Shown piece by piece: positions 2,683-40,449 of a stretch of 64,000 nucleotides of DNA. Within the stretch, counting starts at the first letter, position 1; every line of letters starts with the position of its first letter. The notes beneath the pieces are model-generated. The model was not told the DNA's origin. It saw nothing but the letters and a program-made list of their open reading frames with translations, and did not search any database. The stretch comes from Gemmatimonadota bacterium (lineage in GTDB: Bacteria > Gemmatimonadota > Gemmatimonadetes > Palauibacterales > Palauibacteraceae). The stretch spans positions 1,032 to 65,031 of the forward strand of contig JBDHGL010000013.1 in NCBI GenBank assembly GCA_039589875.1, given 5' to 3'. Made by a program: the position numbers and the translations under genes.

Positions 2683-3528
2683 GTGTTTGTCGTGTACCGT
2701 GACACGCTGAATTGTGAGGCTGTCCAGCGCTGCCTATGGCCGCTGGACGAACCGCGGCCGTACTCGGAGCAGGAAGAGGCGGCCCGCATGCATCTGGGAC
2801 ACTGTACCGAGTGCCGCGAGTTCTTCGCGCGCGACGCCGCATTGGGACGGGCGATCGTCCGTCACGGGCTGGCAGCGAAGGCGCCGGAGAGCCTGCGGCA
2901 ACGCGTTTGGAACATCCTCTTCGGACTGGAGGCTCCGGCGGAGCGTGACGGCCTGTCCTTGGCGGCGTCGGCAGGGGAAGGTGACGGTCAGGCGGCTCGA
3001 GTGGCTGGAGAGATCATCCGGGCAACCCGCTTTCCGGTGCGGCTGCGCCGCGAGGGTTGGGCGGTCGCCGCGGCCATCGTAGCCCTCCTCACCGCGGCGA
3101 CACTCCTCCGTAGCGGCGCCGACGGAGTCGGCGAAGTATACGCGGAAGACTATCTGAGTCACGTCGAGGACCTGAAGCTCTACTCTCCGGATCCGGCCAC
3201 CGTATCCTCTTTCTTCCAGCAGCAGATGGGCGTTGGCATGCACCCTGTCATGCTGGAAGAGGGTCGGCTAACGCGAGCGATGGTCTGTATACTGGCGGAC
3301 CGGCAGGCAGCGATGGTCGAGTACGCGCTGGGCGATCACGTCGTAGCTCACTACCGCATCGTCCGTGGAACAGAAGCGCCGTCGCAGAACGCCAGAATGC
3401 GGGCTACGACGGAGCGCGGCGTAACGACGATCACCTGGCACGACGCCACCTTCGAGCATGCGCTCGTCTCCGATCTCGCGGCCGACGACCTGGTCGCGTT
3501 GGCGCAGGCTACCTTCTCGGCGCGCTAG
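2683..3528 (+). CDS. Putative zinc-finger (ZAS-type) anti-sigma factor, membrane-anchored, with no adjacent sigma factor
   Basis: N-terminal H-x3-C-x2-C motif (MHLGHCTECREFF). Central hydrophobic helix (WAVAAAIVALLTAATLL). C-terminal domain of unknown function. GTG start. Confidence 0.55.
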   Translation: MFVVYRDTLNCEAVQRCLWPLDEPRPYSEQEEAARMHLGHCTECREFFARDAALGRAIVRHGLAAKAPESLRQRVWNILFGLEAPAERDGLSLAASAGEGDGQAARVAGEIIRATRFPVRLRREGWAVAAAIVALLTAATLLRSGADGVGEVYAEDYLSHVEDLKLYSPDPATVSSFFQQQMGVGMHPVMLEEGRLTRAMVCILADRQAAMVEYALGDHVVAHYRIVRGTEAPSQNARMRATTERGVTTITWHDATFEHALVSDLAADDLVALAQATFSAR

Positions 3529-3540
3529 CCCGCGAGGCTC

Positions 3541-5870
3541 TCACCGCGCGCCAGACACCGGCGTAACCCGCACCGCACAGAACTTGAATTCGGGGATTTT
3601 TCCGGCGGGATCGAGCTCGTCGATCGTCAACAGGTTTGCGGCGGCCTCCCGAAAGTGGAACGGGATGAATGCCGATCCGCGTAACATCCGGTCGGACCCG
3701 GTCACGGGGAGCGTGATGCAGCCGCGCCGGGACGCCACTTCCACGAGATCGCCGTCCCGCAAACCAAGCTCCGCGAGATCGCTCGGATGGAGGTCCACGC
3801 GTGGGGCCGGCTCGAGTGCGTGAAGGGCTGCCGAGCGTCGCGTCATGGTCCCGGTATGCCAGTGCTCCAGCAGCCGTCCCGTGTTGAGCACGTACGGGTA
3901 GTCCTGATCCGGTAGCTCCTTCGCGGGCGCGAACTCGGCGGGCACGAACTTTCCCCGGCCACTCGCGGTCGGGAAGCCATCTCCGAACAAGATCTGGATA
4001 CCGTCCCCCGCATCGGGATCCGGACACGGCCAGAGCTTGCCCGTCGACCCGAGGTTCTCGTACGTCAGCCCAGCGTACGACGGAGCGAGAGAGCTGAACT
4101 CGTCGAAGATCTGGTCCGTCGAATCGTACTCCATGCGATAACCCATTCGCGTGGCCAGCTCGCAGATGATCTCCCAATCGGCTCGCGCCTCTCCGGGTGG
4201 CTCGAGCGCCTTCCGGCCTACCTGGACGCGTCGGTCGGTATTCGTGTACGTGCCGAACTTCTCGAAGAAGCTGGTCGCGGGGAAAATGACATCCGCGAAC
4301 TCGGCGGTCTCGGTCAGGAAGATGTCCTGGACGACGAGGAACTCGAGGTTGGCGAGGGCCTTCCGGACCTTGTTGATGTTCGGATCGGAGAGGAAGGGGT
4401 TCTCGCCCATCATGTACATGCCGCGTATCGATCCCGCGAGCGCACCCCCCATGATCTCGACGACGGTCAATCCCGGCTCCGGATCCAGCTGCACCCCCCA
4501 CGCCTCCTCGAACGTGGCCCGGATCGCCGGGTCCGCGACGCTCTGATAGTCCGGATAGACCATCGGGATCAGTCCGGCGTCCGAAGCTCCCTGGACGTTG
4601 TTCTGCCCCCTCAGCGGGTGGAGCCCGGTGCCCTCGCGGCCGATGTTGCCGGTGAGAAGAGCGAGCGAGATAAGGCAGCGCGAGTTATCCGTGCCGTGCG
4701 TGTGCTGCGAGATCCCCATTCCCCAGAAGATGATGGCCTTTTCGGCGCTTCCGAACGCTCGCGCCGCTTCCCGGATCAGGTCCGGCTCCACACCGCAGAT
4801 CTTCGACGACACCTCCGGGGAGTAGCGCTCGACGACGGCCTTCAGATCTTCGAAGCCCTCGGTCATGCCGGCGATGTACTCCTCATCGATCAGACTCTCC
4901 TCGACGAGGACGTGCATCCATGCGTTGTACAGGGCCACGTCGGTGCCCGGCTCGATTTGCAGGAAATAGTCGGCGTGCTCGGCCATTTCGATCCGGCGGG
5001 GCTCGACGACGATCAGCTTCGTGCCGCCGAGCTTGCGGGCCTGCTTCATGAAGGTCGCCGCCACCGGGTGGTTGCCGGTCGTGTTCGAGCCGGCGATCAG
5101 AGCGACGTCTGCGTTCTTCACGTCCGCGAAGACGTTCGTGACCGCCCCCGAGCCGATCGTCTCCATCAGCGCTGCCACCGAAGAGGCGTGGCAGAGCCGC
5201 GTGCAGTGGTCCACGTTGTTGGTCCCGAAGCCGGCCCGGACCAGCTTCTGAAACAGGTACGCCTCCTCGTTGCTACACTTCGCACTCCCGAACCCGGCCA
5301 ACGCCGATGGGCCGTGCCGGTCCCGGATCTCCGCCAGCCGTCCGGCCGCCAGGTCCAGTGCCTCGTCCCAGGTGGCCTCGCGGAAGTGAGGCATCACCTC
5401 ATCGTAGTCGACGATTCCGCCGGGCCTTCGCTTGCGCTCCCCTCGGACGTCCGCCGAAAGGGCACCCTTCGGGTATGCCGACTCCTTGCGAATGAGAGGC
5501 GTCGTGAGCCGCTGCGGATGAGTCGCGTAGTCGAATCCGAAGCGCCCCTTCACACACAGGCGCTCGTCGTTGACCGGGCTGGCACGTCCATCGGCTCGCC
5601 GGATCCGCCCGGCGTCCTCATCCACGAAATACCGGATTGCGCAGCCGACGCCGCAGTATGGGCAAACCGAGTCGACCATCTGCAGCTCCGGTCGCTCTCC
5701 CCCACCGTCCAGCCCCGCCAGGAGCTCCTCTCGATGCGCGTCGATCGCCTCGCGAAGCTCGGGCGTCAGAGCCCCGTGAAGATCGCTCAGGAGCAGACGC
5801 TCACCCTGGCGGCGGACCTTCACTCCACGCTTGCCGAGCTCCCTGAGTAGCGTCGCAGATGTCATAGGTA
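3541..5870 (-). CDS. fdhA: Formate dehydrogenase catalytic subunit (Mo/W-bis-PGD oxidoreductase, FdhA/FdsA-like, Cys-type)
   Basis: Starts MTSATLL… The N-terminal 4Fe-4S motif CPYCGVGC…C precedes the molybdopterin oxidoreductase and molybdopterin dinucleotide-binding domains. The position of the FdhF selenocysteine is Cys here (RLCHASSVAAL). The ATG overlaps the upstream stop (CTATGACA). Confidence 0.9.
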
Positions 5871-6548
5871 CTCCCAGTTTCCCGGGTCCTCGGTCTCCGG
5901 TGCCGGCTCCGCACCAAAGCTCAGGGAGAGCGCTCCTGTCGGACAAACCTTCTCGCACTCTCCGCACGAAACGCAGGTGCTCGCGCCCATCGGGGCATCC
6001 AGATCGAACGCGATCCTCGTCCCGTATCCCTTTCCGGTCCGGCCCATGACCTCGTTCACCTGAAGATCATCGCAGCCGCGGATGCACCGGTCGCACAGGA
6101 TGCACGCCTGGTGATCCACGTAGATCACCTTCGACGACGGATCCGTGCCGCGTCCATCTCCGGCGGGCAACCCGCTGATCCGCTCCCGAGGCCACGGCAC
6201 ATCCAACTCGCTCGCCAGCGCGAGCAGATCATCCGAGCCCGTCTTCGGACGTCCACCGGCGCTCACCGGATAGTCCGACAGGAGGAGCTCGACGAGCCCC
6301 TGCCGACAGGCCTCGAGGCGCTCGGATGATGTGCGGACCTCCATTCCTTCCTCCGCCCGGCGTACGCAGGAGGCCGCGTACTTCTTATCGCCGACGTCCA
6401 CCAGGCACAGCCGGCAGACGCCCACCGGCTCGAGCCTCGGATCGTGGCACAGGACCGGGATGTCGACCCCCATGTCTCGGGCGGCCTCCCAGACGGTCGT
6501 GCCGGCTGGCACCCGAACCGACCGCCCGTCGATCGTCAGCTCGATCAT
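5862..6548 (-). CDS. NuoG-like N-terminal Fe-S subunit (2Fe-2S plus 4Fe-4S ferredoxin module) of NAD-dependent formate dehydrogenase
   Basis: 228 aa. Plant-type 2Fe-2S cysteines (CHDPRLEPVGVCRLC). Two 4Fe-4S motifs (CILCDRCIRGC, CVSCGECEKVCP). This corresponds to the N-terminal module of single-chain FdsA/NuoG proteins. Confidence 0.85.
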   Translation of the reverse strand: MIELTIDGRSVRVPAGTTVWEAARDMGVDIPVLCHDPRLEPVGVCRLCLVDVGDKKYAASCVRRAEEGMEVRTSSERLEACRQGLVELLLSDYPVSAGGRPKTGSDDLLALASELDVPWPRERISGLPAGDGRGTDPSSKVIYVDHQACILCDRCIRGCDDLQVNEVMGRTGKGYGTRIAFDLDAPMGASTCVSCGECEKVCPTGALSLSFGAEPAPETEDPGNWEYL

Positions 6549-6552
6549 CCCG

Positions 6553-8163
6553 CTACGCCGTGCATCCGGGGACCTCCTCCGGCCAATGCTCGGCCACGGA
6601 AAGGAGCGGATTCAGCGCGACATAGCCGAGTCCGCAGATCGACGTCTCGCTCAAGAGCAGGTTCAGCTTCTCTATCACTGCCCAGTCCAGTGGACCGTCG
6701 GTCTCCAGAGTCGTCTCGAGCATTCGGGTGGCCTTCTCGGTCCCGACCCGGCAAGGGACACACTTTCCGCATGACTCGTTTCGAAAGAAGCGAACGACGT
6801 TGGCGGCAAGCGGGAGAAGCTGCGTCCCATCCGCTACGACCACCAGCGCCCCGGAGCCCATCATGCTGCCGGCCTCCTCGAGAGTACCGAAGTCGATCGC
6901 CACACCCGCTCGATCGGCCGGAAGGAAGTTGGATGAGGCGCCGCCCGGTGCGAACGCCTTCAAGGCTCGGCCTCCCGCCACCCCCCCGGCCATCTCGATC
7001 AACTCGCTCACGCTCGTGCCGGTTTCGATCTCGTAGACTCCTGGGGCCTCTACGTGGCCCGAGACAGAGATGAACTTGAGACCGGCATGTCCGCCTCTTC
7101 CGGCCGACTGCCACCATTCCACGCCGTTTTCGAGGATTCCCGGGACGAGCGCAAGCGTCTCGACGTTGTTCATGAGCGTCGGGAGCCCGCGGAAGCCCAC
7201 CTGGCCCGGGAATGGAGGCTTGTTACGTGGCTCTCCGCGTCGGTCCTCGAGGGCTTCAAGGAGGGCTGTCTCCTCCCCGAGTATGTAGCCGCCGGGGGAC
7301 ACGAAAACCTCCACGTCGAAGGCGAAGCCGGTGCCGAGAATGTCGTCGCCCAGAAGACCGGAGGATCGAGCTCGCTCCACCTCCCCTTCGAGCGCCTCCC
7401 GGGCGCGGCCGTATTCGTGCCGTAGGTAGATGATCCCCTTCTCGGCGCCGACGACGAATGCTCCCAGGGCCATCCCTTCCACGACGAGATGCGGCAGATC
7501 CTCCATGATCACGCGATCCTTGAAGGTCCCCGGCTCGCTCTCGTCCGCGTTGCAGATGACGTACTTCGGGTGATTCTCTTCGGCCCGAACCAGCTTCCAT
7601 TTCAGTCCGGTCGGGAAGCCGGCGCCTCCCATGCCGCGCAGTCCGGCGCTCTCCAGCCGACCGACGATCCGCTCGGCTTCGCCTGCCGCCGACTCTGCCG
7701 TGAGAGCAGCTCGCAGTGCACCGTAGGGCTCGCCATCCGGGTACGGATCGCACCTCCAGCGCGCGCTCGGCGACGGGATCTCGGCAGCTCCATCCCGCAG
7801 GCATTCCTCCACCCGCTCCGGAGAGTCCACTCGAACCGGACTGCCGTTGACGTGCGCCGCCGGAGCCAGCTCGCAGCAGCCGAGACAGGAAGCGCTCTCC
7901 ACCGTCACGTCCTCTCGGCCACCGATCAGATCGCGTACCCTGTCGGCCAGACCATCCGCTCCCGCCAGGTGGCAGCTCATGTCACGGCACAACGAGATCG
8001 TGACCGGCGGAGCGGCCTCAGTCCTGAAGTGCGGGTAGAACGAGACGAGACCTTCGAGACGATAGAGCGGAACCTTGAGCCGTGCCGACAGCTCGCTGAG
8101 AGTGGGCTCGTCCAGGTATCCTTTGGCGGCTTGCAGCCGGTCCAGCTCGCGGAGTAGTCGCAT
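6553..8163 (-). CDS. NuoE-NuoF fusion: NAD(H)-binding FMN/Fe-S flavoprotein (FdsG-FdsB / HoxF-like diaphorase subunit)
   Basis: N-terminal thioredoxin-like 2Fe-2S domain (CRDMSCH…CLGCC). NuoF core with a Gly-rich FMN/NAD motif (GLRGMGGAGFPTGLKW). C-terminal 4Fe-4S motif (ESCGKCVPCR). Confidence 0.9.
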   Translation of the reverse strand: MRLLRELDRLQAAKGYLDEPTLSELSARLKVPLYRLEGLVSFYPHFRTEAAPPVTISLCRDMSCHLAGADGLADRVRDLIGGREDVTVESASCLGCCELAPAAHVNGSPVRVDSPERVEECLRDGAAEIPSPSARWRCDPYPDGEPYGALRAALTAESAAGEAERIVGRLESAGLRGMGGAGFPTGLKWKLVRAEENHPKYVICNADESEPGTFKDRVIMEDLPHLVVEGMALGAFVVGAEKGIIYLRHEYGRAREALEGEVERARSSGLLGDDILGTGFAFDVEVFVSPGGYILGEETALLEALEDRRGEPRNKPPFPGQVGFRGLPTLMNNVETLALVPGILENGVEWWQSAGRGGHAGLKFISVSGHVEAPGVYEIETGTSVSELIEMAGGVAGGRALKAFAPGGASSNFLPADRAGVAIDFGTLEEAGSMMGSGALVVVADGTQLLPLAANVVRFFRNESCGKCVPCRVGTEKATRMLETTLETDGPLDWAVIEKLNLLLSETSICGLGYVALNPLLSVAEHWPEEVPGCTA

Positions 8164-8573
8164 CAGGACTGGTCCCAGTAGCGTGCCTTCCGCGGGCTGA
8201 CGATCGCCCGGATCCCGCCCGTGGGATCAGCGACATCGCCGACATATCGGGGAATTACGTGAATGTGCGCGTGCGGCACGGTCTGTCCGGCAGCCAGGCC
8301 GTCGTTGACTCCTATGGTGAAGCCCTCCGGCCGGGCCTCTCGGATGAGCAGGCTGCGCGCCTCTGACGTGAGACTCCACAGCTCATCCTGTTCCGGCCGC
8401 GACAGGTGAAAGACGCTCTCGACATGTCGATACGGCACGATGAGGAGATGGCCGTCGGCGACCGGGAAGCCGTCGCGCACGACGAGACCGTGCTCTCCCT
8501 CTATGCGAATGCGCTCCTCGGGGAGCTCGCAAAATGGGCAGCCCTGCATGGCATGGAATGTAAGCGCCCGCAC
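8163..8573 (-). CDS. HIT (histidine triad) family protein
   Basis: 136 aa with HxHxHxx motif (HAHIHVIP). Its 3' end abuts the start of the NuoEF-like gene. Confidence 0.85.
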   Translation of the reverse strand: MRALTFHAMQGCPFCELPEERIRIEGEHGLVVRDGFPVADGHLLIVPYRHVESVFHLSRPEQDELWSLTSEARSLLIREARPEGFTIGVNDGLAAGQTVPHAHIHVIPRYVGDVADPTGGIRAIVSPRKARYWDQS

Positions 8574-8925
8574 GGCGTTCTGGCACGCCGCGCCTGCGCT
8601 GAAGTCGGATCTGTGGGGAGTCCGACCTAGTTCTTACGCGCCGACCAGTAGGCCCAGGAGAGGGGGCCGCGAGGTCGGGACGGAGGCGGCTCGGAAGCTC
8701 GCGCCGCCAGGTCCGTCGGAAACTCGAGCACGACCGGCGCGTCATGCGTCACATCGTTCTCCTGCCCACGCGAGCCGTCGCCGTTCTCGGCTTCCGAAGA
8801 GGTCTGCGAGACCTTCTGGGCCGCCGGGTCCTCGGACGTCAGCTGGCGCCAGGCGCCGTGGACGGGTCGGATCGGCCGGCGGCTGTACCCTCGGATGCGC
8901 TTGCGCCAGTTGGCGAAGAGCGGAT

Positions 8926-9669
8926 TCAAGCTCCGCTCCCGTTGAGCAGCAGCCGGCCGCGCCGAAAACGGGCCATGGCCGCCGATACCAAGAGCGCATC
9001 CAGGGTTGCCAGGGATGCCGTCAGCACGAGCGCCACTCGTGCAGGATCTCCGATCAGCAGCGTCGTGATAAGGTCGGTCCTCGTTCCGGCCGGGAGCATC
9101 TGCAGTCCGAACACGGGCACGATGAACGCCGCGAGGACACCCAAGCTGAAGGTCTGCTGGGCATGTCTCACCGTCGGAGCGCGCAGCGAGACCAGGACGC
9201 CGAGAGCTCCTCCAAATATCGATGCCAGCAGGGCGAGTCCCGTGACCGTGCCGAGCTGAGCAGAGGTGTAGAAGACCATCTCGCCCGGCGCGCGAATGTT
9301 GACCGCCACCAGGCTCAGCGGAACGCTGAGCAGCGTAGCGCCCCAAACGTACACGACGGCGGCGCTCATCTTACCTGCGAGGATGGCCCGATCCGGTAGC
9401 CGGGTGGCGAGCAGGCTACCGAGTGTGCCTCGTTCTCGCTCTCCGGCAAACGTATCGGCCGTAACGGTCGTCATGAGAAAGGTCGGTATCCAGACCCAGA
9501 AGAGAAGAACCCACGGTGCCGACAGCCAACTCGGCCCGACCTGATAGGGGAGAAACAGCCCGAGCACGGCAACGAAAACGAGGAGACCGACGATGCCGGA
9601 ATCCCGGCTGCCGGGAGCGTTGAGCTCGCGCCACTCCTTCCAGGCGACCGTCAGGACGTCCCGAATCAC
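8926..9669 (-). CDS. ABC-2 type transporter permease
   Basis: 247 aa with six predicted TM segments. The upstream ATPase stop overlaps this gene's start (9666/9669). Confidence 0.8.
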   Translation of the reverse strand: MIRDVLTVAWKEWRELNAPGSRDSGIVGLLVFVAVLGLFLPYQVGPSWLSAPWVLLFWVWIPTFLMTTVTADTFAGERERGTLGSLLATRLPDRAILAGKMSAAVVYVWGATLLSVPLSLVAVNIRAPGEMVFYTSAQLGTVTGLALLASIFGGALGVLVSLRAPTVRHAQQTFSLGVLAAFIVPVFGLQMLPAGTRTDLITTLLIGDPARVALVLTASLATLDALLVSAAMARFRRGRLLLNGSGA

Positions 9670-10712: not shown

Positions 10713-11066
10713 CGTGCGCCCCGGGGTTGCAGGAGGCGTACGAGATAGGCCCGGCCGAGGTCGCGAATCCTGTCATCTTCCATAACTTACTGCATCGTAT
10801 GATGTTACATGGTCGGCAGCTCTGTTACGCCAAACCCGATGAACGGATGGCACCCATCGGGCTGTTGCCGTGAAACCACATTCATGCGGGCCGGCCTGTA
10901 ACTGGAGCCTTCTAGGAGCGACACCTGCTGCATCCGGACCACATGCCCGCATCTGGGTCGAGCGCCTTATCTTCAGCATCTTCAGTAATCGGCGATCGGC
11001 GAACGGCGTGAAGCCCGGGCTTCGATCCGCCGCGTAGGCGACAAAACCGCACATAACGAAGGAGAG

Positions 11067-11798
11067 GTGGCGTTGACCGACTCGAGCTCGAAGGCCGTCG
11101 ATTCCCGCATGGTGGTGGGCGAAGAGACGTTCGAAGTCGTAGAGGACGCGCTGGTCGATTTGTGGGCGGTCGTCAACGAGCTGGCACGGATTCGCCCGCC
11201 GAAGCCCAAGTACTACCGGGTCACTATCTTCGGCTCTTCTCGCATGAGGAGCGGCGATCGGCTGTTCGAGGATGTTCGTGACCTGGCCAGGCAGCTGTCC
11301 GCGATGGGTTGCGACATCGTGACTGGCGGCGGACCAGGCCTCATGGAAGCGGCGAACGAAGGAGCGAAGCTGGGAGATCCGGACAACGTCACTCGCTCCT
11401 TCGGATTGCCGATCGAGCTGTCGACGGAAGAGGAGCCGAACCCGTTCGTGGAGAAGCTTTATCGGCACCGGACCTTTTTCTCCCGCCTGCATCAGTTCGT
11501 CCGGCTGTCAAGCGCCTTCATCGTCGTTCCCGGCGGGATCGGAACGCTTCTCGAGACCACCATGATCTGGCAGCTCTGCCAGGTAAAGCATGTCTCCGAG
11601 GTGCCGCTCATCTTCCTCGGCGAGATGTGGGAAGAGCTCCGGGTTTGGGCCCGCGAGCACATGTTGGGCGGCGAGCGCGACCTGGCGGGCCAGACGGATC
11701 TGGACATCCCTTACTGCGTCCCCACCGTAGCGGCGGCGGTAGAGATCATCCGAAAGGACCTCGACCTGTTCAACGGCACGAGCGAGGCCGCCGTTTGA
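11067..11798 (+). CDS. LOG family protein (TIGR00730; cytokinin riboside 5'-monophosphate phosphoribohydrolase-like)
   Basis: GGGPGLMEA and PGGIGTLLE motifs typical of LOG / lysine-decarboxylase-like Rossmann proteins. Confidence 0.85.
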   Translation: MALTDSSSKAVDSRMVVGEETFEVVEDALVDLWAVVNELARIRPPKPKYYRVTIFGSSRMRSGDRLFEDVRDLARQLSAMGCDIVTGGGPGLMEAANEGAKLGDPDNVTRSFGLPIELSTEEEPNPFVEKLYRHRTFFSRLHQFVRLSSAFIVVPGGIGTLLETTMIWQLCQVKHVSEVPLIFLGEMWEELRVWAREHMLGGERDLAGQTDLDIPYCVPTVAAAVEIIRKDLDLFNGTSEAAV

Positions 11799-19686: not shown

Positions 19687-20265
19687 GTGCGAGACCGAAA
19701 ACCGCCACGAGAGAGACCGACACTGATCGAGCACGCGCACGTGCCACAGGGGGATCCGGATCTCCGCGATGCGGCGCTCGCCGCCGAAGGAGACGATGGA
19801 GCTTTCGAGCGGCTGTACCGACGTCACGTGAACCGGATTCACAGCCTGGCCCGACGCATGGCGGGGCCGGATGCGGCCGATGAGCTCACACAAGATGCCT
19901 TCGTCCGCGCTTGGCAGAAGATGTCGCAGTTCAGGGGCGAAGCGGCTTTCGGCTCCTGGCTGTACCGAGTCGCGATCAGCGTGATTCTGGGACACAGGAG
20001 GCGCCTGGCGATCCACAGGGGACGCGAGGCACCGGAGGAATCGATTCGAGGAGGAACACCGTCGCATGAGACGAGCACGCAGATCGGGATCGACTTCGAG
20101 GCGGCGATGGAGACGCTGCCCGAGCGGGCCCGGCACGTCTTCGTCCTTCACGACGTGGAAGGATACAAGCACCACGAGATCGCCCGGTTCATGAAGATCA
20201 CGACCGGCACCTCGAAATCTCAGCTGCACAGGGCGCGCATGCTTTTGCGTACGTCGCTGGCCTGA
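19687..20265 (+). CDS. ECF-family RNA polymerase sigma-70 factor
   Basis: Sigma-70 region 2 (ELTQDAFVRAWQKMSQF…SWLYRVA). Region 4 helix-turn-helix (HDVEGYKHHEIARFMKITTGTSKSQLHRAR). The true start may be the internal GTG near 19741. Confidence 0.9.
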   Translation: MRDRKPPRERPTLIEHAHVPQGDPDLRDAALAAEGDDGAFERLYRRHVNRIHSLARRMAGPDAADELTQDAFVRAWQKMSQFRGEAAFGSWLYRVAISVILGHRRRLAIHRGREAPEESIRGGTPSHETSTQIGIDFEAAMETLPERARHVFVLHDVEGYKHHEIARFMKITTGTSKSQLHRARMLLRTSLA

Positions 20266-20275
20266 GGAGACGGAG

Positions 20276-20986
20276 ATGAACGACAGAACGGATATCTGGC
20301 GCGCCCGGCTCTCAGAGTATTTGGATGGCGAGTTGGCGACCCCGGAGCGAGCGGCGCTCGAGGAGCACCTCGAGGAGTGCGGCGACTGCCGGGCCCTGCT
20401 TGACGACCTGCGTCGGGTAATCACGCAGGCGAGCAGGCTGGTTGATTCGCCACCCTCCGAGGACCTGTGGACGGGGATCGCGGAGCGCATCCGCGCCGAG
20501 AAGCCCGCGGGCATCGACCGAGGAGCTTCGACCGTCACGGATCGGCACCGCAGCCGGGAAGCCACCAGGAAGCTCAGCTTCAGCATGCCGCAGCTGGCGG
20601 CCGCCGCCGTATTGCTGGTGACCGTCTCCTCGGGCGTCGCCTGGCAACTGGCAGCAGGCTTCTCTTCTCGGCAGGAGGAAGTGGCTGGCCCGGCGCCGAC
20701 CGCGGTGGCCGGCGAGCTGCTCCGAGTGGCGCGAGTCGCGAACCTCGACTACGAGTCGGCGATCGCGCAGCTGGAGACCGCCCTCGATGCCGGGCGGCAG
20801 AATCTCGATACAGCGACCGTTCGCAAGGTGGAAGAGCGGCTGGCCCTCATCGACAAGGCGATCGAGGAGGCTCGGCAGGCGCTGGCCGCCGATCCGTCCA
20901 ACGCTTACCTGAACCACTATCTGGCCGGCACGATGCGGCGGAAGCTCGACCTCCTGCGCCGCACTGCCGCCCTGACCGAAACCTGA
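20276..20986 (+). CDS. Zinc-finger (ZAS) anti-sigma factor, membrane-spanning
   Basis: Lies 11 nt after the sigma gene. H-x3-C-x2-C motif (HLEECGDCRAL). TM helix (LAAAAVLLVTVSSGVAW). C-terminal periplasmic helical domain. Confidence 0.8.
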   Translation: MNDRTDIWRARLSEYLDGELATPERAALEEHLEECGDCRALLDDLRRVITQASRLVDSPPSEDLWTGIAERIRAEKPAGIDRGASTVTDRHRSREATRKLSFSMPQLAAAAVLLVTVSSGVAWQLAAGFSSRQEEVAGPAPTAVAGELLRVARVANLDYESAIAQLETALDAGRQNLDTATVRKVEERLALIDKAIEEARQALAADPSNAYLNHYLAGTMRRKLDLLRRTAALTET

Positions 20987-21018
20987 TCCCGTGAACCGTA
21001 CGAAGAGAGGATAGAATC

Positions 21019-21882
21019 GTGACAGCAACTATCATCGCGGCCGCGCTCAGCGCCCTGGTGACGGTCCAACAGCAGACGGACACCCTGGTCGCCGTCCCGA
21101 GCGACGTCCGAATCTCGGTGAACAATGTCGCCGGTGACGTGACGGTCAGCAGCTGGGATCAGAACCAGGTGCGCGTCGTGGCCGAACATGGCTCGGACGA
21201 TATCGTGGAGATCGACGCCGAGGGCAATGCGCTCGAGATCCAGGCCGTCTCCGCGACAGGTCACGCGATCGCCGATCTGGAGCTCACCGTCCCGACGGGC
21301 GCCTCGCTCGAGATCCACGCGCCGTTCGCCGATGTGACGATTGAGGGAACGCAAGGCGATGTCACCGTCGAGACGGTGGAGGGAGACATCCACCTGGAGG
21401 GCGGCCGAGGTCAGGTGCAGCTGGACGCGGTGGACGGAGACATCATGATCAGCGGAGCGGAGGGCAACATCCAGGCGGCATCCGTGGACGGAGACGTGAC
21501 CCTGGAAGGCGTATCCGGCGCCATTCAGGCGGAAGCCGTGGACGGAGATGTGGTCCTGATGAACGCCTCATCCGAGAGCGTCGAGGCGGCGACGATCGAC
21601 GGCGACATCGAGTGGGATGGCGACATTCAAGATGGCGGGAGCTACAGCTTCGTGACCCACGATGGAGACCTGCTCGTGGGACTCCAGCCCGGCGCGAACG
21701 CCAGGATTTCCGTCGCCAGCTTCGACGCGGACTTCACGACCGACTTCGAAAGTGCGCTGCAGGAGCTGGAGGCCAGCGAGGGAGCGAAGCGGTTCAGCTT
21801 CGTTCTGGGCAGCGGCAGCGCGCGGGTCGAGCTCGAGTCGTTCGATGGGACGATCCACCTGACGCGGCGCGGCTCCTTCTAG
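21019..21882 (+). CDS. DUF4097 family protein (putative adhesin-like beta-helix; LiaF/YvlB-like)
   Basis: Repetitive (V/I)DGD(V/I)xxxGxxG units (VDGDIMISGAEGNIQAASVDGDVTLEGVSGAIQAEAVDGDVVL) typical of DUF4097. Confidence 0.75.
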   Translation: MTATIIAAALSALVTVQQQTDTLVAVPSDVRISVNNVAGDVTVSSWDQNQVRVVAEHGSDDIVEIDAEGNALEIQAVSATGHAIADLELTVPTGASLEIHAPFADVTIEGTQGDVTVETVEGDIHLEGGRGQVQLDAVDGDIMISGAEGNIQAASVDGDVTLEGVSGAIQAEAVDGDVVLMNASSESVEAATIDGDIEWDGDIQDGGSYSFVTHDGDLLVGLQPGANARISVASFDADFTTDFESALQELEASEGAKRFSFVLGSGSARVELESFDGTIHLTRRGSF

Positions 21883-21920
21883 TCCAGCTTCGGATCGCGG
21901 AGACCGCGGTCGACTAAGGA

Positions 21921-22802
21921 ATGAACCATCACCCGGAGGAAATTCACGTGTTCGCAAGAAAGCTCAACAACCCGCTGGTCGTCTCTCTGGCCGCCGGTCT
22001 GCTGGGACTCGTCCTGGCCAACGAAGCCGCTATCGCACCCGAGCCGTCGCTCGGCAGCCTACACGCCGTGCCGGATGTCGAGCAGGAGAGCCAGGAATTC
22101 CGATGGAGCGGTGCCATGCAGCCGGGAACGACGCTCGAGGTCCGGGGCGTGAACGGTGAGGTGAAGGCGGAGGGCGTCTCGGGCGGCCAGGCCGAGGTCG
22201 TGGCCGTCAAGAAGGGCAAGGATGATGATCCGACCGATGTGCAGGTCGAAGTGGTGGAGCATAGCGGCGGGATCACGATCTGCGCCGTATACCCGAACAA
22301 ACCCGGAAAGGACCCCAACGAGTGCGCACCGGGCGGTGGCGGCCGCATCAGCAGCCACGACAACGACGTCTCCGTGAAGTTCACCGTCCTCGTTCCACGA
22401 GGCGTGAACCTGAAGGCCAGCACGGTCAACGGTGCCGTCGAGGCCCAATCGATCGACGGGGACGTCAACGCTCAGACGGTCAACGGAAGTGTGAAGGTGA
22501 GCGCCGCGGGCACGGCGGAGGCGCAGACGGTCAACGGTTCGGTGACGGCCGCGATGGGACGTGCGGAAGGACCGCTCAGCTTCCAGACCGTGAACGGAAG
22601 CATCACGGTGGAGCTGCCGGAGGGTGTCGGGGCGGATGTGAAGGTTCAGACGGTCAACGGACGCATCAACACGGATTTCCCGATGACCGTGAAGGGCCGA
22701 TTCGGGTCGCGCAGCGCGAGCGGCACGATCGGTGGAGGTGGACCGGACCTCTCCCTGCAGACGGTGAACGGCAGCATCAATCTGAAGCGGGCAAGCAGCT
22801 AG
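21921..22802 (+). CDS. DUF4097 family protein, second paralog with TVNGSV repeats
   Basis: Repeats of QTVNGS(V/I)xV. N-terminal hydrophobic anchor. Same module and strand as the preceding gene. Confidence 0.75.
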   Translation: MNHHPEEIHVFARKLNNPLVVSLAAGLLGLVLANEAAIAPEPSLGSLHAVPDVEQESQEFRWSGAMQPGTTLEVRGVNGEVKAEGVSGGQAEVVAVKKGKDDDPTDVQVEVVEHSGGITICAVYPNKPGKDPNECAPGGGGRISSHDNDVSVKFTVLVPRGVNLKASTVNGAVEAQSIDGDVNAQTVNGSVKVSAAGTAEAQTVNGSVTAAMGRAEGPLSFQTVNGSITVELPEGVGADVKVQTVNGRINTDFPMTVKGRFGSRSASGTIGGGGPDLSLQTVNGSINLKRASS

Positions 22803-36954: not shown

Positions 36955-37335
36955 GGGGCCCCTCCCAAACCGCGAAGTGAATTTCATGGATTCCCATCCA
37001 CCTCCGAAAGCGGCAGCCGTTCGCGGTCTCCCGGCGCTCCGCTCCCCCAAAAAAGCCACAAAATCCTGCATGCGTAGGGATACGTTTGTCAACCAACGCG
37101 TACGCATGGAAGCCAGGGCTCCCGGCGCAAAGGGCTGACAAAACTCCCCACGTCATTTTACGCCCGAAGAACGGATGCCCGGCGTGAATCGTGACGATCG
37201 CCCGGGCCGCCCTCGGTCTCCGCCCGGCACCTGCCCCCTCGGTGCTGGGTAGTCTCAGCGTATGAAGCCGTGCGGAGCCACAGAAGAGATTCCGCGCAAG
37301 GCTATCCACAGCAACTTTTTAAGCTACTTTATACA

Positions 37336-38523
37336 ATGACGACATCGGTGACCACGTCACGAGAAAGAGCGGCACTCTGGCTACCAGCCATCGGCCTGAT
37401 CCTCTCGGGATGTTCGTCGGACTCCGGAACCGGCCCTCCAGCTCCGCCCCCAGGTGGGTTCGACCTGGCGGTCGAGACGATCGCATCGGGCCTGACCCGT
37501 CCACTCTACCTGACGTCGCCGGCGGACGACGATCGGCTGTTCGTCGTCGAACAGGCCGGCCGGATCCGGATCGTGCGCGAAGGGACCGCGGATCCACAGC
37601 CGTTCCTCGATATCCGGTCTCTCGTGACGAGCACCGTCGAGCGCGGACTTTTAAGCATAGCGTTCCATCCCGGGTACACGAGCAACGGCCTGTTCTACGT
37701 CAGTTACACGGACAACGGCGGTGACACGCGGATCGAGAGATACTCGGCGAGCACCGATCCGGACGTCGCGGATCCGGCGTCCGCCAAGTTGATCCTGGAG
37801 CTGGAGCAGCCGCGCGCGAACCACAACGGCGGACATATACTCTTCGGCCCCGATGGCATGCTCTACGTCGCGCTCGGCGACGGGGGAGGCGCCGGCGATC
37901 CGCTGGAGAGCGGGCAGGACGCGAGCACCCTGCTGGGCTCGCTTCTCCGACTGGATGTCGACGGCGGCGATCCGTTCGCCATCCCGCCGGACAACCCCTT
38001 CGTCGGCGGGCCGGGCCGCGACGAGATCTGGGCCTTCGGGCTCAGAAACCCGTGGCGTATCGCATTCGACCCCCCGACCGGCCTCTTCTATATCGCGGAC
38101 GTCGGTCAGACAGCCTTCGAAGAGGTCAACGTGGTCGACGATGACGAAGCCGGCCTCAACTTCGGCTGGAACATCATGGAGGGGGCACACTGCTTCCCGG
38201 ACGGCCCGCAGGGCGCGAGCTGTGATGAAGCCGGCCTCGTGCTTCCCGTGCTGGAGTACGGACACGACGAAGGCTGCGCGGTGACCGGTGGCCTGGTCTA
38301 CCGGGGAAGCGACCTACCAGAGATCTCGGGACACTACTTCTATTCGGACTTCTGCGCCGGCTTCCTGCGGAGCTTTACGTTCGACGGGGGCTCGGCTACG
38401 GATCTCACGGAATGGGATGTCGGAGACCTCGCCGATGTTCTCTCCTTCGGGCAGGATTCACGAGGCGAGCTCTACATCCTCTCGGCTAGCGGACAGGTCC
38501 TGAAGATCGTACGCGGCTCCTAG
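37336..38523 (+). CDS. PQQ-dependent soluble sugar dehydrogenase (YliI/GSDH family) lipoprotein
   Basis: Lipobox LSGC. GSDH beta-propeller motifs (NHNGGHILFGPDGMLYVALGDGG, FGLRNPWRIAFDP, FGWNIMEG). Confidence 0.85.
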   Translation: MTTSVTTSRERAALWLPAIGLILSGCSSDSGTGPPAPPPGGFDLAVETIASGLTRPLYLTSPADDDRLFVVEQAGRIRIVREGTADPQPFLDIRSLVTSTVERGLLSIAFHPGYTSNGLFYVSYTDNGGDTRIERYSASTDPDVADPASAKLILELEQPRANHNGGHILFGPDGMLYVALGDGGGAGDPLESGQDASTLLGSLLRLDVDGGDPFAIPPDNPFVGGPGRDEIWAFGLRNPWRIAFDPPTGLFYIADVGQTAFEEVNVVDDDEAGLNFGWNIMEGAHCFPDGPQGASCDEAGLVLPVLEYGHDEGCAVTGGLVYRGSDLPEISGHYFYSDFCAGFLRSFTFDGGSATDLTEWDVGDLADVLSFGQDSRGELYILSASGQVLKIVRGS

Positions 38524-38585: not shown

Positions 38586-40415
38586 ATGATGCCCAGCCCC
38601 ATAACCGATAGACCGCACGCCGCCAAGCCGGCTGCCAACAGAACGCCTCACGGAGCCGCCCTGCTGAGCGGCCTAGCGCCCTTGATCCTCATGACCGTGT
38701 CCGGAGTCCCGGCAGCCCAGGCACAGACGGCCGCCGTTCCGGACGCCGATACGGCGCGCGCGGTGCACCTGCTCTCTCGGGCCACGTACGGAGTCAGGCC
38801 GGAAGATCTGGCCGGGCTGCTCGACAGCGGCATCGACGCCTGGCTCGACCGACAGCTCACCCCGAGCCGAATCGACAACTCCGCCCTGGAAGCCCGGCTG
38901 GAAACGTATCCAGCGGCCGAGATGACCATCGCCGAGCTGTACGAGGCCTACCCACCTCCCCAGGTCGTGCGGGAGCGGCTCGGGAATCCCGATTCGGTCT
39001 CGCAGGAGGAGATGCGGCGCATGCGCCGGGAGCTACGCATTCAAAGCCCCAATCGGATCCTCTTCGACCTCGGTGGAGCCAAGCTGCAACGGGCCGTCTA
39101 CGCGAAGCGCCAGCTCGAGGAGGTGATGACGGACTTCTGGTTCAACCACTTCAACGTCTTCTTCGCGAAGGGCCCCGACCGCTGGCTCGTCGGCGACTAC
39201 GAGCGCGAGGCGATCCGGCCGTACGTCTTCGGTGAGTTCGAGGACATGCTCGTGGCCACCGCCTCGCATCCGGCGATGCTGGTCTACCTGGATAATTGGC
39301 AGAGCCAGGTTCCGGACTCGCTGAACCCTCGTGCGGGGCAGCAGGCGCGAAACCGCGAGCGTTTCCGGAATATGTCGCCGCGCCAGCGTCAGGTCGTCCT
39401 TCGCATGCGGGGAGTTTCAGACGAACAGATCGCCCGGATCGAAGGGGCGGTGAAGCGGCAAGCCGGACGCGAGCCGGGACTGAACGAGAACTACGCACGC
39501 GAGCTCCTGGAGCTGCATACGCTGGGCGTGGACGGTGGGTACTCGCAGGAGGACGTCGTAGCGGTCGCCCGGGCGTTTACCGGCTGGACGATCCAGCTGC
39601 CTGGACGTGGAGGAGGTGGCCGTCGCTCGGGGACGAAGATGCCTGACGGGAGCTCCTCCGCCGGACAGTTCGTGTTTCGCGAGGAATGGCACGACCCGGG
39701 CGAGAAGGTCGTGCTCGACCGCACGCTACCGTCCGGCCGCGGCATGGAGGACGGGCTCGACGTGCTTCGCATGCTCGCCGTCCACCCATCGACGGCGGAG
39801 CACATCGCCCGGAAGCTGAGCGAGGCGTTCGTGTCGGACGAGCCGTCGCCTCGGATGGTCGAAGAGCTGACCGCCGTCTTTCTCGAGACGCGGGGAGATC
39901 TCCGGGAGGTCACCAAGGCGCTGTTCACGTCGCCTTACTTCTACGACCCGGCCAACTTCGGCACCAAGCTGAAGTCGCCGTTCGAGCTCGTGGCCAGCGC
40001 GCTCAGGGTGACGGGCGCCGAGTTCGGCGCGTCGCGAGGGCTCGGCGAGCAGCTCAGGGCGCTCGACCAGATTCCCTATATGTCCTCGCCGCCGACCGGC
40101 TACCCGGCGGTTTCCGAGGAATGGGCCAGCGGTGGGGCGCTGCTTCAGCGGATGAATCTCGGCCTCGCGCTCGCTACCGGGAACATCCGGAACGTCCAGA
40201 TCCCGCGGGACCTTTCGCGGCAGCCGTTGGACCAGATGCTGTCGGACATCCTGCCGGGGATGGACACCTCCGGCTTGAGCGCGACCATCGCCGCCGAAAT
40301 GCAGAGCGGTTTCGCCGGACTGGATGGCACGCAGGCGGAGCTGCGTCGACAATCCGGGCCGAGCGATCTGGCGCTCGGCCTCGCGCTCGGGTCGCCCGAG
40401 TTCCAGCGGCACTGA
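38586..40415 (+). CDS. DUF1800 domain protein
   Basis: Signal peptide, then DUF1800 signature (FWFNHFNVF…). Confidence 0.8.
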   Translation: MMPSPITDRPHAAKPAANRTPHGAALLSGLAPLILMTVSGVPAAQAQTAAVPDADTARAVHLLSRATYGVRPEDLAGLLDSGIDAWLDRQLTPSRIDNSALEARLETYPAAEMTIAELYEAYPPPQVVRERLGNPDSVSQEEMRRMRRELRIQSPNRILFDLGGAKLQRAVYAKRQLEEVMTDFWFNHFNVFFAKGPDRWLVGDYEREAIRPYVFGEFEDMLVATASHPAMLVYLDNWQSQVPDSLNPRAGQQARNRERFRNMSPRQRQVVLRMRGVSDEQIARIEGAVKRQAGREPGLNENYARELLELHTLGVDGGYSQEDVVAVARAFTGWTIQLPGRGGGGRRSGTKMPDGSSSAGQFVFREEWHDPGEKVVLDRTLPSGRGMEDGLDVLRMLAVHPSTAEHIARKLSEAFVSDEPSPRMVEELTAVFLETRGDLREVTKALFTSPYFYDPANFGTKLKSPFELVASALRVTGAEFGASRGLGEQLRALDQIPYMSSPPTGYPAVSEEWASGGALLQRMNLGLALATGNIRNVQIPRDLSRQPLDQMLSDILPGMDTSGLSATIAAEMQSGFAGLDGTQAELRRQSGPSDLALGLALGSPEFQRH

Positions 40416-40449
40416 CTCCGGTCCCCGGTTGGAGTAGCTGGAGAGAATC

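What the first reader, a model, noticed from the sequence alone, without database searches (positions are those of the whole stretch)
3541..8573. NAD-linked formate dehydrogenase operon with a split alpha subunit, a NuoE-NuoF fusion and a leading HIT gene
Four tightly coupled minus-strand genes: HIT, a NuoE-NuoF fusion, a 228-aa NuoG-N-terminal-like Fe-S protein, and an 808-aa ORF (about 775 aa from the MTSATLL start) encoding the Mo-bisPGD catalytic subunit. In characterised FdsA-type enzymes the Fe-S module and the Mo domain form one polypeptide. Here they are separate genes joined by an ATGA stop/start overlap (CTATGACA at 5862..5870), so the split is genuine rather than a frameshift. The diaphorase E and F subunits are fused instead. 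The catalytic residue is Cys, not Sec. No fdhD/fdsC/fdsD accessory genes lie within the operon, and a HIT hydrolase leads it, which is not a described arrangement.
Basis: partly seen in the sequence, partly recalled or inferred. Interest (0 to 1): 0.5.

Follow-up and report, generated by a model that had tools for sequence, protein, structure and literature searches.

The report
Split formate dehydrogenase with docking domains
This is a real NAD-linked formate dehydrogenase operon whose catalytic subunit was split into two genes, and the two halves carry the tail-and-docking-domain pair known so far only from antibiotic-making NRPS/PKS assembly lines.

Summary
The four minus-strand genes are real. 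They encode a HIT protein, a NuoE-NuoF fusion, a 228-aa Fe-S protein and a 774-aa W/Mo-bisPGD subunit with Cys225-His226. All three enzyme parts match the Methylorubrum extorquens tungsten FDH1 (Fdh1AB). The alpha chain is cut in the linker between its residues 272 and 290. The NuoE-NuoF fusion is the family norm, not a novelty. The split is genuine: at least 44 protein clusters from many metagenomes share it, in one Gemmatimonadota clade nested among fused relatives. An independent split occurs in Ectothiorhodospiraceae and related groups. The new point is the roughly 55-aa N-terminus of the catalytic half. It is a beta-hairpin docking domain (Pfam TubC_N) that matches EpoB, Bamb_5915, AerJ and TubC by sequence and predicted fold. 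Every upstream Fe-S subunit paired with it ends in a variable linker followed by W-E-x-[L/V/I]-COOH. Two sublineages that lost the domain also lost this tail. Most likely the pair tethers the two halves non-covalently; binding is inferred, not shown. HIT is specific to the main split clade and its role is unknown. The window contains no fdhD. I rate this a new variant of a known enzyme.

The parts
8163..8549 (-). HIT-family gene (128 aa from the ATG; an alternative GTG start lies at 8573). Histidine triad HAHIHV at 8256..8273. First gene of the operon; its stop overlaps the next start (TGATG).
   Evidence: Pfam HIT scores 67.7 bits. The nearest solved relative is Ap4A phosphorylase Rv2613c, 3WO5, at 62.8 bits, in the Fhit branch. 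NCBIfam ATP adenylyltransferase scores only 66.5 against a cutoff of 290. HIT lies immediately upstream of NuoEF in L006, L007, L087, L089, L091 and L092. It is absent from L002, L003, L093 and from fused-alpha loci.
6553..8163 (-). Beta subunit, a NuoE-NuoF fusion (536 aa). It carries a thioredoxin-like [2Fe-2S] domain, an FMN/NAD(H) site and a [4Fe-4S] cluster.
   Evidence: Pfam 2Fe-2S_thioredx, Complex1_51K, SLBB and NADH_4Fe-4S. The best solved match is the tungsten FDH beta subunit 7E5Z_B over residues 4-532, 348 bits.
5862..6548 (-). Alpha-N, a stand-alone Fe-S subunit (228 aa). It corresponds to residues 72-272 of the fused M. extorquens FDH1 alpha. Cys34/45/48/61 form the [2Fe-2S] site. 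Cys149/152/155/159 and Cys192/195/198/202 form two [4Fe-4S] sites.
   Evidence: The Cys columns are invariant across split and fused relatives.
5880..5927 (-). Variable acidic, Pro/Ala/Gly-rich linker of alpha-N (residues 208-223, SLSFGAEPAPETEDPG).
   Evidence: Length and sequence vary freely among homologues, in contrast to the terminal motif that follows.
5865..5879 (-). C-terminal short linear motif of alpha-N, N-W-E-Y-L-COOH. Family consensus is W-E-x-[L/V/I]-COOH.
   Evidence: 23 further cluster representatives end in W-E-x-[LVI] plus one in WEAV. All eight alpha-N genes seen next to a docking-domain gene (window, L092, L091, L006, L007, L086, L089, L003) have it. The docking-less L002 and L093 lack it, as do five further docking-less-type representatives. 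It is the only ORF of at least 80 aa in the window ending this way.
5862..5865 (-). ATGA stop/start overlap between alpha-N and alpha-C (translational coupling).
   Evidence: The same NTGA overlap (ATGA, GTGA or TTGA) occurs in all eight docking-type loci.
5701..5865 (-). Beta-hairpin docking domain (TubC_N type), residues 1-55 of alpha-C.
   Evidence: Pfam PF18563 scores 36.9 bits against a gathering cutoff of 26, E 4e-9. A profile search of PDB finds EpoB 5T7Z (6e-7), Bamb_5915 6CGO (1e-6), AerJ 8AQQ (4e-6) and TubC 2JUG (2e-4). The AF2 model has pLDDT 85.5 and topology H3-12, E15-20, E23-28, H35-43, H45-53. The top 10 Foldseek PDB matches are all docking domains, TM 0.51-0.87 (nine at 0.75 or above; the TubC NMR model is the outlier), probability 0.99-1.00. 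dN/dS is 0.09-0.5 at dS 0.7-1.7.
3541..5700 (-). Alpha-C catalytic core. It consists of a short linker, a [4Fe-4S] domain (CPYCGVGC from residue 68), and the W/Mo-bisPGD domains. The ligand is Cys225 (TGC, 5191..5193) next to His226.
   Evidence: TIGR01591 scores 805.8 against a cutoff of 666. The match to 7VW6_A/7E5Z_A residues 290-984 scores 863 bits, with an identical TRLCHASSVAALME active-site stretch.

Best explanation
The operon encodes a soluble NAD+-linked tungsten- or molybdenum-bisPGD formate dehydrogenase of the Fdh1AB type (M. extorquens FDH1).

Inferred electron path: formate is oxidised at the Cys225-ligated metal centre of alpha-C. Electrons pass through the alpha-C [4Fe-4S] cluster, across a subunit interface into the two [4Fe-4S] clusters and the [2Fe-2S] cluster of alpha-N, and then to the FMN of the NuoE-NuoF fusion, which reduces NAD+.

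In this Gemmatimonadota clade the ancestral single alpha gene was cut in its inter-domain linker. The cut is bridged by a megasynthase-type docking pair. A disordered C-terminal tail on alpha-N ends in W-E-x-[L/V/I]-COOH, and most likely adds a strand to the beta-hairpin of the N-terminal docking domain of alpha-C. This would replace the lost covalent linker with a non-covalent tether that helps the two halves find and hold each other.

The simplest origin is the insertion of an NRPS-like subunit-junction cassette (tail, overlapping stop/start, docking domain) into the linker.

Shown here: the enzyme family, the split, the docking-domain fold, the conserved tail, and their joint gain and joint loss. 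Inferred: physical binding, the electron path, and the choice of metal. The role of HIT is unknown.
For: Enzyme identity:
- Alpha-C, alpha-N and beta best match chains A (residues 290-984 and 72-272) and B of the tungsten FDH1 structures 7VW6/7E5Z.
- TIGR01591 is above its cutoff.

Split:
- Of 80 species-representative relatives, 74 are fused, 3 are split and 3 are cut by contig ends.
- Split forms are monophyletic (bootstrap 84) and sit inside fused Gemmatimonadota sequences.

Docking domain: detailed under parts.

Tail:
- W and E are invariant and the last residue is aliphatic in 24 cluster representatives, while the preceding 14-24 residues vary.

Joint presence and absence:
- All eight loci where both genes were read have the pair.
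- The nested docking-less lineage (L002/P0049, L093/P0053) lacks both elements.
- That lineage still keeps the first five codons MTTAT and the ...LTRVDS flank, the signature of an internal deletion.

Selection: dN/dS is 0.1-0.3 for most pairs, with dS near saturation.

The SLiM-binding strand carries invariant R23, L26 and D28. Their positions match R24 and E28 of Kj12C, which form the salt bridges in the solved complex (PMC6195595).

A genuine NRPS junction, L090, has the same layout: PCP, linker, VEEVEF*, a TTGA overlap, then MSLSELLHELRTRGVELR.

The review PMC9113145 defines the pair as a disordered C-terminal motif of fewer than 15 residues whose last five residues bind strand beta2.
Against: - No binding or complex model could be obtained.
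- The tail register (x-W-E-x-hydrophobic) differs from the one solved example (L-R-G-E-I), so the contacts cannot simply be copied.
- Docking is dispensable for a split FDH. The L002/L093 lineage and the independent Ectothiorhodospiraceae-type split work without it.
- In some NRPS systems the tail contributes little and the domain grips the partner's globular part instead (PMC13324335).
- The TubC docking domain is a homodimer, so a dimerisation role is conceivable.
- The linker between the docking domain and the core is about 10 aa, shorter than the roughly 20 aa typical of NRPS.
- All sequences come from MAGs or metagenomes. No expression or activity data exist.
Confidence: 0.68

Rival explanations
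1. The N-terminal beta-hairpin domain serves another purpose. It could recruit a maturation factor (for example an FdhD-like sulfurtransferase or a cofactor-insertion chaperone), bind the globular part of alpha-N or beta, or dimerise the enzyme as TubC's domain does. The conserved W-E-x-hydrophobic tail would then have an unrelated role, such as packing onto the Mo domain.
For: - N-termini of cytoplasmic molybdoenzymes are known chaperone-binding sites (general knowledge of NarG/NarJ).
- The TubC docking domain is dimeric (PMC6195595).
- In the FR-901375 system the domain grips the carrier protein and the tail is dispensable.
- TubC_N domains occur in many short non-NRPS proteins of unknown function.
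Against: - Strict co-occurrence and co-loss of tail and domain.
- The tail is at the extreme C-terminus after a variable linker, exactly as in NRPS pairs, and is encoded directly upstream with an overlapping stop/start as in L090.
- No chaperone gene is present in the operon or the window.
Confidence: 0.17
2. The docking domain and tail are functionless relics of the DNA insertion that split the gene. The two halves assemble through the native inter-domain interface alone.
For: - Docking-less split enzymes exist in a nested Gemmatimonadota lineage and in an independent, much larger group.
- The pair was lost at least once.
Against: - Purifying selection on the domain: dN/dS of about 0.1-0.3 at near-saturated dS.
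- 18 invariant columns across nine diverse sequences.
- W, E and the terminal aliphatic residue are invariant while the linker drifts.
- The pair is retained in at least 44 clusters down to 77% identity.
Confidence: 0.1
3. The split is an artefact (a frameshift or assembly error) or a pseudogene, and the real protein is a single FdsA-like chain.
For: None found. The out-of-frame upstream extension of the 808-aa ORF is simply the alpha-N tail read in another frame.
Against: - The same stop/start overlap is seen in ten independently assembled loci from different samples.
- Both products are under selection, with all Fe-S cysteines intact.
- The inserted sequence encodes a folded domain.
Confidence: 0.01

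Closest known systems
Tungsten-containing NAD+-dependent formate dehydrogenase FDH1 (Fdh1AB) of Methylorubrum extorquens AM1 (PDB 7VW6, 7E5Z; Laukel et al. 2003, cited in PMC7311640)
   Same: - The beta subunit is a NuoE-NuoF fusion (348 bits over its full length).
- The alpha chain has the same Fe-S module and the same bisPGD domain (144 and 863 bits).
- The Cys-His active-site stretch TRLCHASSVAALME is identical.
- No gamma or delta subunit genes lie in the operon.
   Different: - Here the alpha chain is two polypeptides, cut between the equivalents of residues 272 and 290.
- About 65 extra residues sit at the cut (tail plus docking domain).
- A HIT gene leads the operon.
- The metal (W or Mo) is unknown.
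FdsABG(D) Mo-formate dehydrogenases of Rhodobacter capsulatus and Cupriavidus necator (PDB 6TGA, 6VW7)
   Same: Same overall logic: a NuoG-like Fe-S module plus a Mo-bisPGD domain, with a NuoF/NuoE-type diaphorase and a Cys ligand (529 bits to 6TG9_A).
   Different: - More distant than Fdh1AB.
- Fds has separate FdsB (NuoF-like) and FdsG (NuoE-like) subunits.
- Fds has fdsC and fdsD accessory genes, which are absent here.
SLiM / beta-hairpin docking domain pairs of NRPS and PKS-NRPS assembly lines (TubB-TubC, EpoA-EpoB, Bamb_5917-Bamb_5915, Kj12A/B/C, AerJ)
   Same: [quoted passage not shown]
- The upstream subunit ends in a disordered linker plus a short conserved hydrophobic/acidic C-terminal motif.
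- The stop and start codons overlap.
- Charged residues are conserved on strand beta2.
   Different: - The host is a primary-metabolism redox enzyme, not a megasynthase. No carrier protein or condensation domain is involved.
- The motif is W-E-x-hydrophobic rather than, for example, L-R-G-E-I.
- The pair joins two halves that already share a native domain interface.
- The linker to the catalytic core is shorter.
HoxFU diaphorase of NAD-reducing [NiFe] hydrogenases, and the docking-less split FDH operons of Ectothiorhodospiraceae, SAR324 and others
   Same: A stand-alone HoxU/NuoG-N-like Fe-S subunit of about 225 aa beside a NuoE-NuoF-type flavoprotein. In L059 the gene order NuoEF, small subunit, FdhA and the ATGA overlap are the same.
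   Different: - Alpha-N scores 152 bits against a cutoff of 333 for HoxU, so it is not a HoxU equivalog.
- The other split FDHs have short tails and only about 20 aa before the CPYCG motif. They have no docking pair and no HIT.

Membership tests
Metal-dependent formate dehydrogenase alpha subunit (TIGR01591 / Fdh1A-FdsA type) | bisPGD-binding catalytic domains scoring above the curated family cutoff | tested here: met
   TIGR01591 scores 805.8 bits against a cutoff of 666.25. The match to 7VW6_A scores 863 bits.
Metal-dependent formate dehydrogenase alpha subunit (TIGR01591 / Fdh1A-FdsA type) | Cys or Sec metal ligand followed by His | tested here: met
   Cys225 (TGC) and His226 lie in TRLCHASSVAALME, which is identical to the M. 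extorquens FDH1 stretch.
Fdh1AB / FdsA-type NAD-linked FDH | NuoG-like N-terminal Fe-S module on the same polypeptide as the bisPGD domain | tested here: not met
   The two parts are separate genes with an ATGA overlap. By contrast, 74 of 80 related species-representative loci are fused. The enzyme works like the family but is a split variant.
Fdh1AB-type NAD-linked FDH | Beta subunit that is a NuoE-NuoF fusion | tested here: met
   Pfam 2Fe-2S_thioredx plus Complex1_51K, SLBB and NADH_4Fe-4S lie in one 536-aa ORF. 7E5Z_B aligns over residues 4-532.
Fdh1AB-type NAD-linked FDH | NAD+-dependent formate oxidation; W or Mo content | not testable with these tools
   Needs a purified enzyme and metal analysis.
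Beta-hairpin docking domain (Pfam TubC_N, PF18563) | Sequence match above the Pfam gathering score | tested here: met
   36.9 bits against a cutoff of 26, E 4e-9. PF18563 is precomputed on all 44 closest homologues. PDB profile hits are EpoB, Bamb_5915, AerJ and TubC.
Beta-hairpin docking domain (Pfam TubC_N, PF18563) | [quoted passage not shown] | tested here: met
   The AF2 model has pLDDT 85.5 and topology H-E-E-H-H. The top 10 Foldseek PDB matches are all such domains, nine of them with rmsd 1.0-1.8 A; the TubC NMR model is at 3.5 A. This is a predicted fold, not an experimental one.
SLiM / beta-hairpin docking pair | Partner subunit ends in a disordered linker plus a short conserved C-terminal motif | tested here: met
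   W-E-x-[LVI]-COOH follows a variable 14-24-aa linker in 24 cluster representatives. The motif is absent wherever the domain is absent. Disorder is inferred from composition and variability only; the AF2 model was uninformative.
SLiM / beta-hairpin docking pair | Physical binding of the tail to strand beta2 of the domain | not testable with these tools
SLiM / beta-hairpin docking pair | Located at a subunit junction of an NRPS or PKS-NRPS assembly line | tested here: not met
   No NRPS or PKS domains occur in the operon or the window. The host is a formate dehydrogenase.
HoxU (bidirectional hydrogenase diaphorase Fe-S subunit, NF005745) | Score above the curated equivalog cutoff | tested here: not met
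   152.3 bits against a cutoff of 333. The best structural-sequence match is FDH1 alpha residues 72-272.
HIT superfamily | HIT domain with an H-x-H-x-H-x-x triad | tested here: met
   Pfam HIT scores 67.7 bits. The triad HAHIHVIP starts at residue 93. The subfamily is unresolved: Ap4A phosphorylase/ATP adenylyltransferase NF052622 scores 66.5 against a cutoff of 290.

The most novel reading that the evidence does not exclude
A complete megasynthase subunit-junction cassette (C-terminal tail, overlapping stop/start, N-terminal beta-hairpin docking domain) was inserted into the inter-domain linker of a formate dehydrogenase alpha gene. In one step this produced a split enzyme whose halves re-associate through the imported docking pair. 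It would be the first natural use of NRPS/PKS docking domains in primary redox metabolism. It would also be a natural counterpart of the synthetic-biology practice of splitting enzymes with docking domains.
Probability: 0.4. Interest if true: 0.72.

Novelty: new variant of a known kind. Interest (0 to 1): 0.58.

Why it matters
Beta-hairpin docking domains and their C-terminal partner motifs are treated in the literature, up to 2026, as devices of specialised metabolism. I found no paper linking them to a molybdo- or tungsto-enzyme.

If the pair works here, several things follow:
- These portable docking elements have escaped into core energy metabolism.
- Gene fission can be rescued, or even caused, by importing a ready-made docking pair.
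- Nature supplies matched controls for testing what the tether contributes to assembly of a multi-cluster redox enzyme: fused relatives, split relatives with docking, and split relatives without docking.
- It is relevant to engineering modular CO2-reducing formate dehydrogenases, where swapping catalytic and diaphorase modules is a goal.

The rest of the finding is ordinary for the family: the enzyme type, the NuoE-NuoF fusion, the Cys ligand and the missing accessory genes.

Tried and rejected
1. A word-indexed protein search with the docking-domain profile returned one weak hit. The exhaustive representative search worked instead.
3. The AF2 model of alpha-N was poor (pLDDT 57, residues 123-228 below 50). 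It therefore says nothing about tail disorder.
4. Promoter and terminator scans of 3300..9100 gave nothing above shuffled expectation.
5. The FdhD motif SCG[VILM]CG, a second docking domain, and an NRPS HHxxxDG motif were sought in all six frames of the window. None was credible. The single HHxxxDG match, in a 244-aa ORF at 10773..11507, has no Pfam support.
6. I looked for covariation between tail position -2 and docking-domain residues. For example, the tail ending WERV co-occurs with VELRR / KDLHR. But only about eight independent pairs exist and L003 breaks the pattern, so I make no claim.
7. The HoxFU-plus-FdhF chimera idea was rejected. Alpha-N is closest to fused Gemmatimonadota FDH alpha N-termini (60-70% identity) and to FDH1 alpha, not to HoxU.
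8. The idea that the docking-less split is the ancestral intermediate was rejected. The tree nests it inside a docking-bearing clade (bootstrap 100 for P0044+P0049+P0053) and the retained MTTAT start points to a deletion.
9. The literature search on Fdh1B fusions gave only indirect citations.


Full report
**Observation.** The minus strand of 3541..8573 carries four closely packed ORFs.
- A HIT protein. It is 128 aa from the ATG at 8549, as called on the public copy of the contig. The GTG at 8573 is an alternative start.
- A 536-aa NuoE-NuoF fusion (6553..8163).
- A 228-aa Fe-S protein (5862..6548).
- A bisPGD catalytic subunit, 774 aa from the ATG at 5865 (MTSATLL...).

The junctions are a TGATG overlap, a 4-nt gap and an ATGA overlap. 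Pfam and NCBIfam confirm the domain content. TIGR01591 'formate dehydrogenase subunit alpha' scores 805.8 bits against a cutoff of 666.

**What enzyme it is.** All three redox proteins have the same best solved relative: the tungsten-containing NAD+-dependent FDH1 of Methylorubrum extorquens (7VW6/7E5Z).
- The catalytic subunit (residues 63-773) aligns to alpha residues 290-984 at 863 bits. The active-site stretch TRLCHASSVAALME is identical, which gives Cys225-His226.
- The 228-aa protein aligns to alpha residues 72-272.
- The NuoE-NuoF fusion aligns over its whole length to the beta chain.

So this is an Fdh1AB-type enzyme whose alpha chain is cut in the 18-residue linker between the Fe-S module and the bisPGD module. 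Among 80 related loci from species-representative genomes, a NuoEF gene lies next to alpha in 61, and at least 55 of those include the NuoE-like part. Fused Gemmatimonadota relatives have bare two-gene operons with no fdhD or fdsD. The lack of accessory genes is therefore also normal. The rest of the 64-kb window holds housekeeping genes. It has no FdhD, no Mo-cofactor genes and no NRPS.

**How common the split is.**
- Of the 80 species-representative loci, 74 have a fused alpha, 3 are split and 3 are cut by contig ends.
- In the protein database, the 44 closest clusters (77-100% identity, 769-778 aa, from NCBI, JGI, ENA and Logan) are all split. From 78% identity downward the hits are fused chains of 930-990 aa from other Gemmatimonadota.
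- A neighbour-joining tree of the catalytic core puts all split forms in one clade (bootstrap 84) nested among fused Gemmatimonadota sequences. This indicates a single fission event.
- The split is not unique, however. 83 of the 120 closest relatives of the small subunit are stand-alone proteins of about 223 aa from Ectothiorhodospiraceae (Aquisalimonas, Spiribacter halobius), SAR324 and others.
- Locus L059 shows the same NuoEF, small subunit, FdhA order with an ATGA overlap. This is an independent fission, annotated only generically.

**The new element.** Residues 1-55 of the catalytic subunit match Pfam TubC_N (PF18563), the N-terminal docking domain of NRPS and PKS-NRPS subunits, at 36.9 bits against a gathering cutoff of 26. 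The precomputed Pfam lists show it on all 44 split homologues.
- A profile of nine diverse copies finds the four solved sequence relatives in the PDB: EpoB 6e-7, Bamb_5915 1e-6, AerJ 4e-6 and TubC 2e-4.
- AlphaFold2 gives a confident model (pLDDT 85.5) with helix-strand-strand-helix-helix topology.
- The ten best Foldseek matches in the PDB are all beta-hairpin docking domains. TM-scores are 0.51-0.87, with nine at 0.75 or above and rmsd 1.0-1.8 A for those nine; the TubC NMR model is the outlier at TM 0.51 and rmsd 3.5 A.
- The coding region is under purifying selection, with dN/dS mostly 0.1-0.3 and dS at 0.7-1.7.

**The partner motif.** In megasynthases this domain binds a short linear motif at the extreme C-terminus of the upstream subunit. 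That motif follows a disordered linker, and only its last five residues form a strand against beta2 (PMC9113145, PMC6195595).

The upstream Fe-S subunit has the same layout. After the last cluster motif (CPTGAL) comes a linker of 14-24 residues that varies in length and sequence. Then comes an invariant W-E, one variable residue, and a terminal L, V or I: NWEYL here, and SWEYV, GWEVL, DWEVL, GWERV and GWELV elsewhere.
- This holds in all eight loci where both genes were read.
- It also holds in 24 cluster representatives of the small subunit.
- Strand beta2 of the domain carries invariant R23, L26 and D28. These sit at the positions of the salt-bridge residues R24 and E28 of Kj12C.
- A genuine NRPS junction recovered in the metagenome scan (L090) has the same gene-level layout: PCP, linker, VEEVEF-stop, a TTGA overlap, then MSLSELLHELRTRGVELR....

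**Joint gain and joint loss.** Inside the split clade, one lineage (P0049/L002 and P0053/L093) lacks the docking domain. Its small subunits end in ...SLTILIDEAT or ...SLQILIGDHASPPPAG, with no W-E motif.
- This lineage is sister to the docking-bearing P0044/L003 (bootstrap 100), and L002 shares L003's upstream gene neighbourhood while L093 shares its downstream one.
- Its catalytic subunit starts MTTATVPRLTRVDS. P0044 starts MTAATLLEEL...MKPLTRVDS. The difference is an in-frame deletion of the domain.
- The most parsimonious history is: fused alpha, then split with the docking pair, then loss of both elements together in one lineage.
- Co-gain and co-loss are the strongest available argument that the two elements work as a pair.
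- The co-gain also suggests that a ready-made junction cassette was inserted into the linker. That is inference.

**Mechanism and confidence.** That this is an Fdh1AB-type formate dehydrogenase with a genuinely split alpha is close to certain. That the tail binds the docking domain and tethers the two halves is my best explanation (about 0.7), but it is not shown. I could not model a complex. The motif register also differs from the one solved example. Docking-less split enzymes show the tether is not essential.

Rival readings:
- The domain has another partner or causes dimerisation (about 0.17).
- The pair is a neutral relic (about 0.1). Selection argues against this.
- The split is an artefact (about 0.01).

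**HIT.** The HIT gene belongs to the Fhit / Ap4A-phosphorylase branch. It lies immediately upstream of NuoEF in all seven main-clade loci that include upstream sequence. It is absent from L002, L003, L093 and from all other relatives. It is a conserved, clade-specific and probably co-translated neighbour. I found no evidence bearing on its role.

**Comparison and novelty.** The enzyme is a member of a known family. The split has an unreported but already sequenced parallel elsewhere. What I could not find described is a SLiM / beta-hairpin docking pair on a primary-metabolism redox enzyme. Reviews and a 2026 paper treat the pair as a feature of specialised metabolism, and targeted searches found nothing. 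The exhaustive profile search does show many TubC_N domains on short non-NRPS proteins of unknown function. The domain's range is therefore wider than the literature implies. I rate the finding a new variant of a known kind, of moderate to good interest.

Noticed in passing
L059:1932-6930; protein clusters P0307-P0389: A large, separate group of split-alpha FDH operons has stand-alone Fe-S subunits of about 223 aa, short tails and no docking domain. Members include Ectothiorhodospiraceae (Aquisalimonas sp. 2447, Spiribacter halobius), SAR324 and Lambdaproteobacteria. One subgroup has its own conserved acidic tail (...VEEET).
   Followed up: partly
P0124, P0126, P0131, P0137, P0144, P0149, P0183: TubC_N-type docking domains are frequent on short non-NRPS proteins. 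Some carry two tandem copies and some are followed by CxxC...CxxC zinc-ribbon-like segments. Pfam finds no other domain. Their contexts and partners are unknown.
   Followed up: partly
L090:4808-5220: This is a genuine NRPS subunit junction from a metagenome. The PCP domain ends ...PVEEVEF-stop, and a TTGA overlap leads into a docking domain (SLSELLHELRTRGVELR...). The gene-level layout is the same as at window 5862..5865.
   Followed up: yes
L002:7339-8100 and L093:1686-2460: A sublineage of the split clade has deleted the docking domain, keeping the first five codons (MTTAT), and has also lost the W-E-x-hydrophobic tail. In L093 the two genes are separated by 22 nt instead of overlapping.
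   Followed up: yes
window 8550-8925: About 375 nt lie between the ABC-2 permease gene and HIT. An ORF (8627..9346) overlaps this stretch but has no Pfam hit. The syntenic locus L091 has a called 133-aa gene at this position. The stretch may hold a small gene or the operon's regulatory region.
   Followed up: no
window 2683-3528 (+): A conserved 281-aa protein with no Pfam match is convergent with the FDH operon, with only 12 nt between the two stop codons. It is syntenic in L091 and L092 (277-288 aa, also without hits).
   Followed up: no
window 19687-22802: An ECF sigma factor, a zf-HC2 anti-sigma factor and two DUF4097 'toastrack' proteins lie in a row. This is a typical envelope-stress module.
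   Followed up: no
window 38586-41799: An adjacent DUF1800 / DUF1501 gene pair lies next to a GSDH-family dehydrogenase (37270-38523). Its function is unknown.
   Followed up: no
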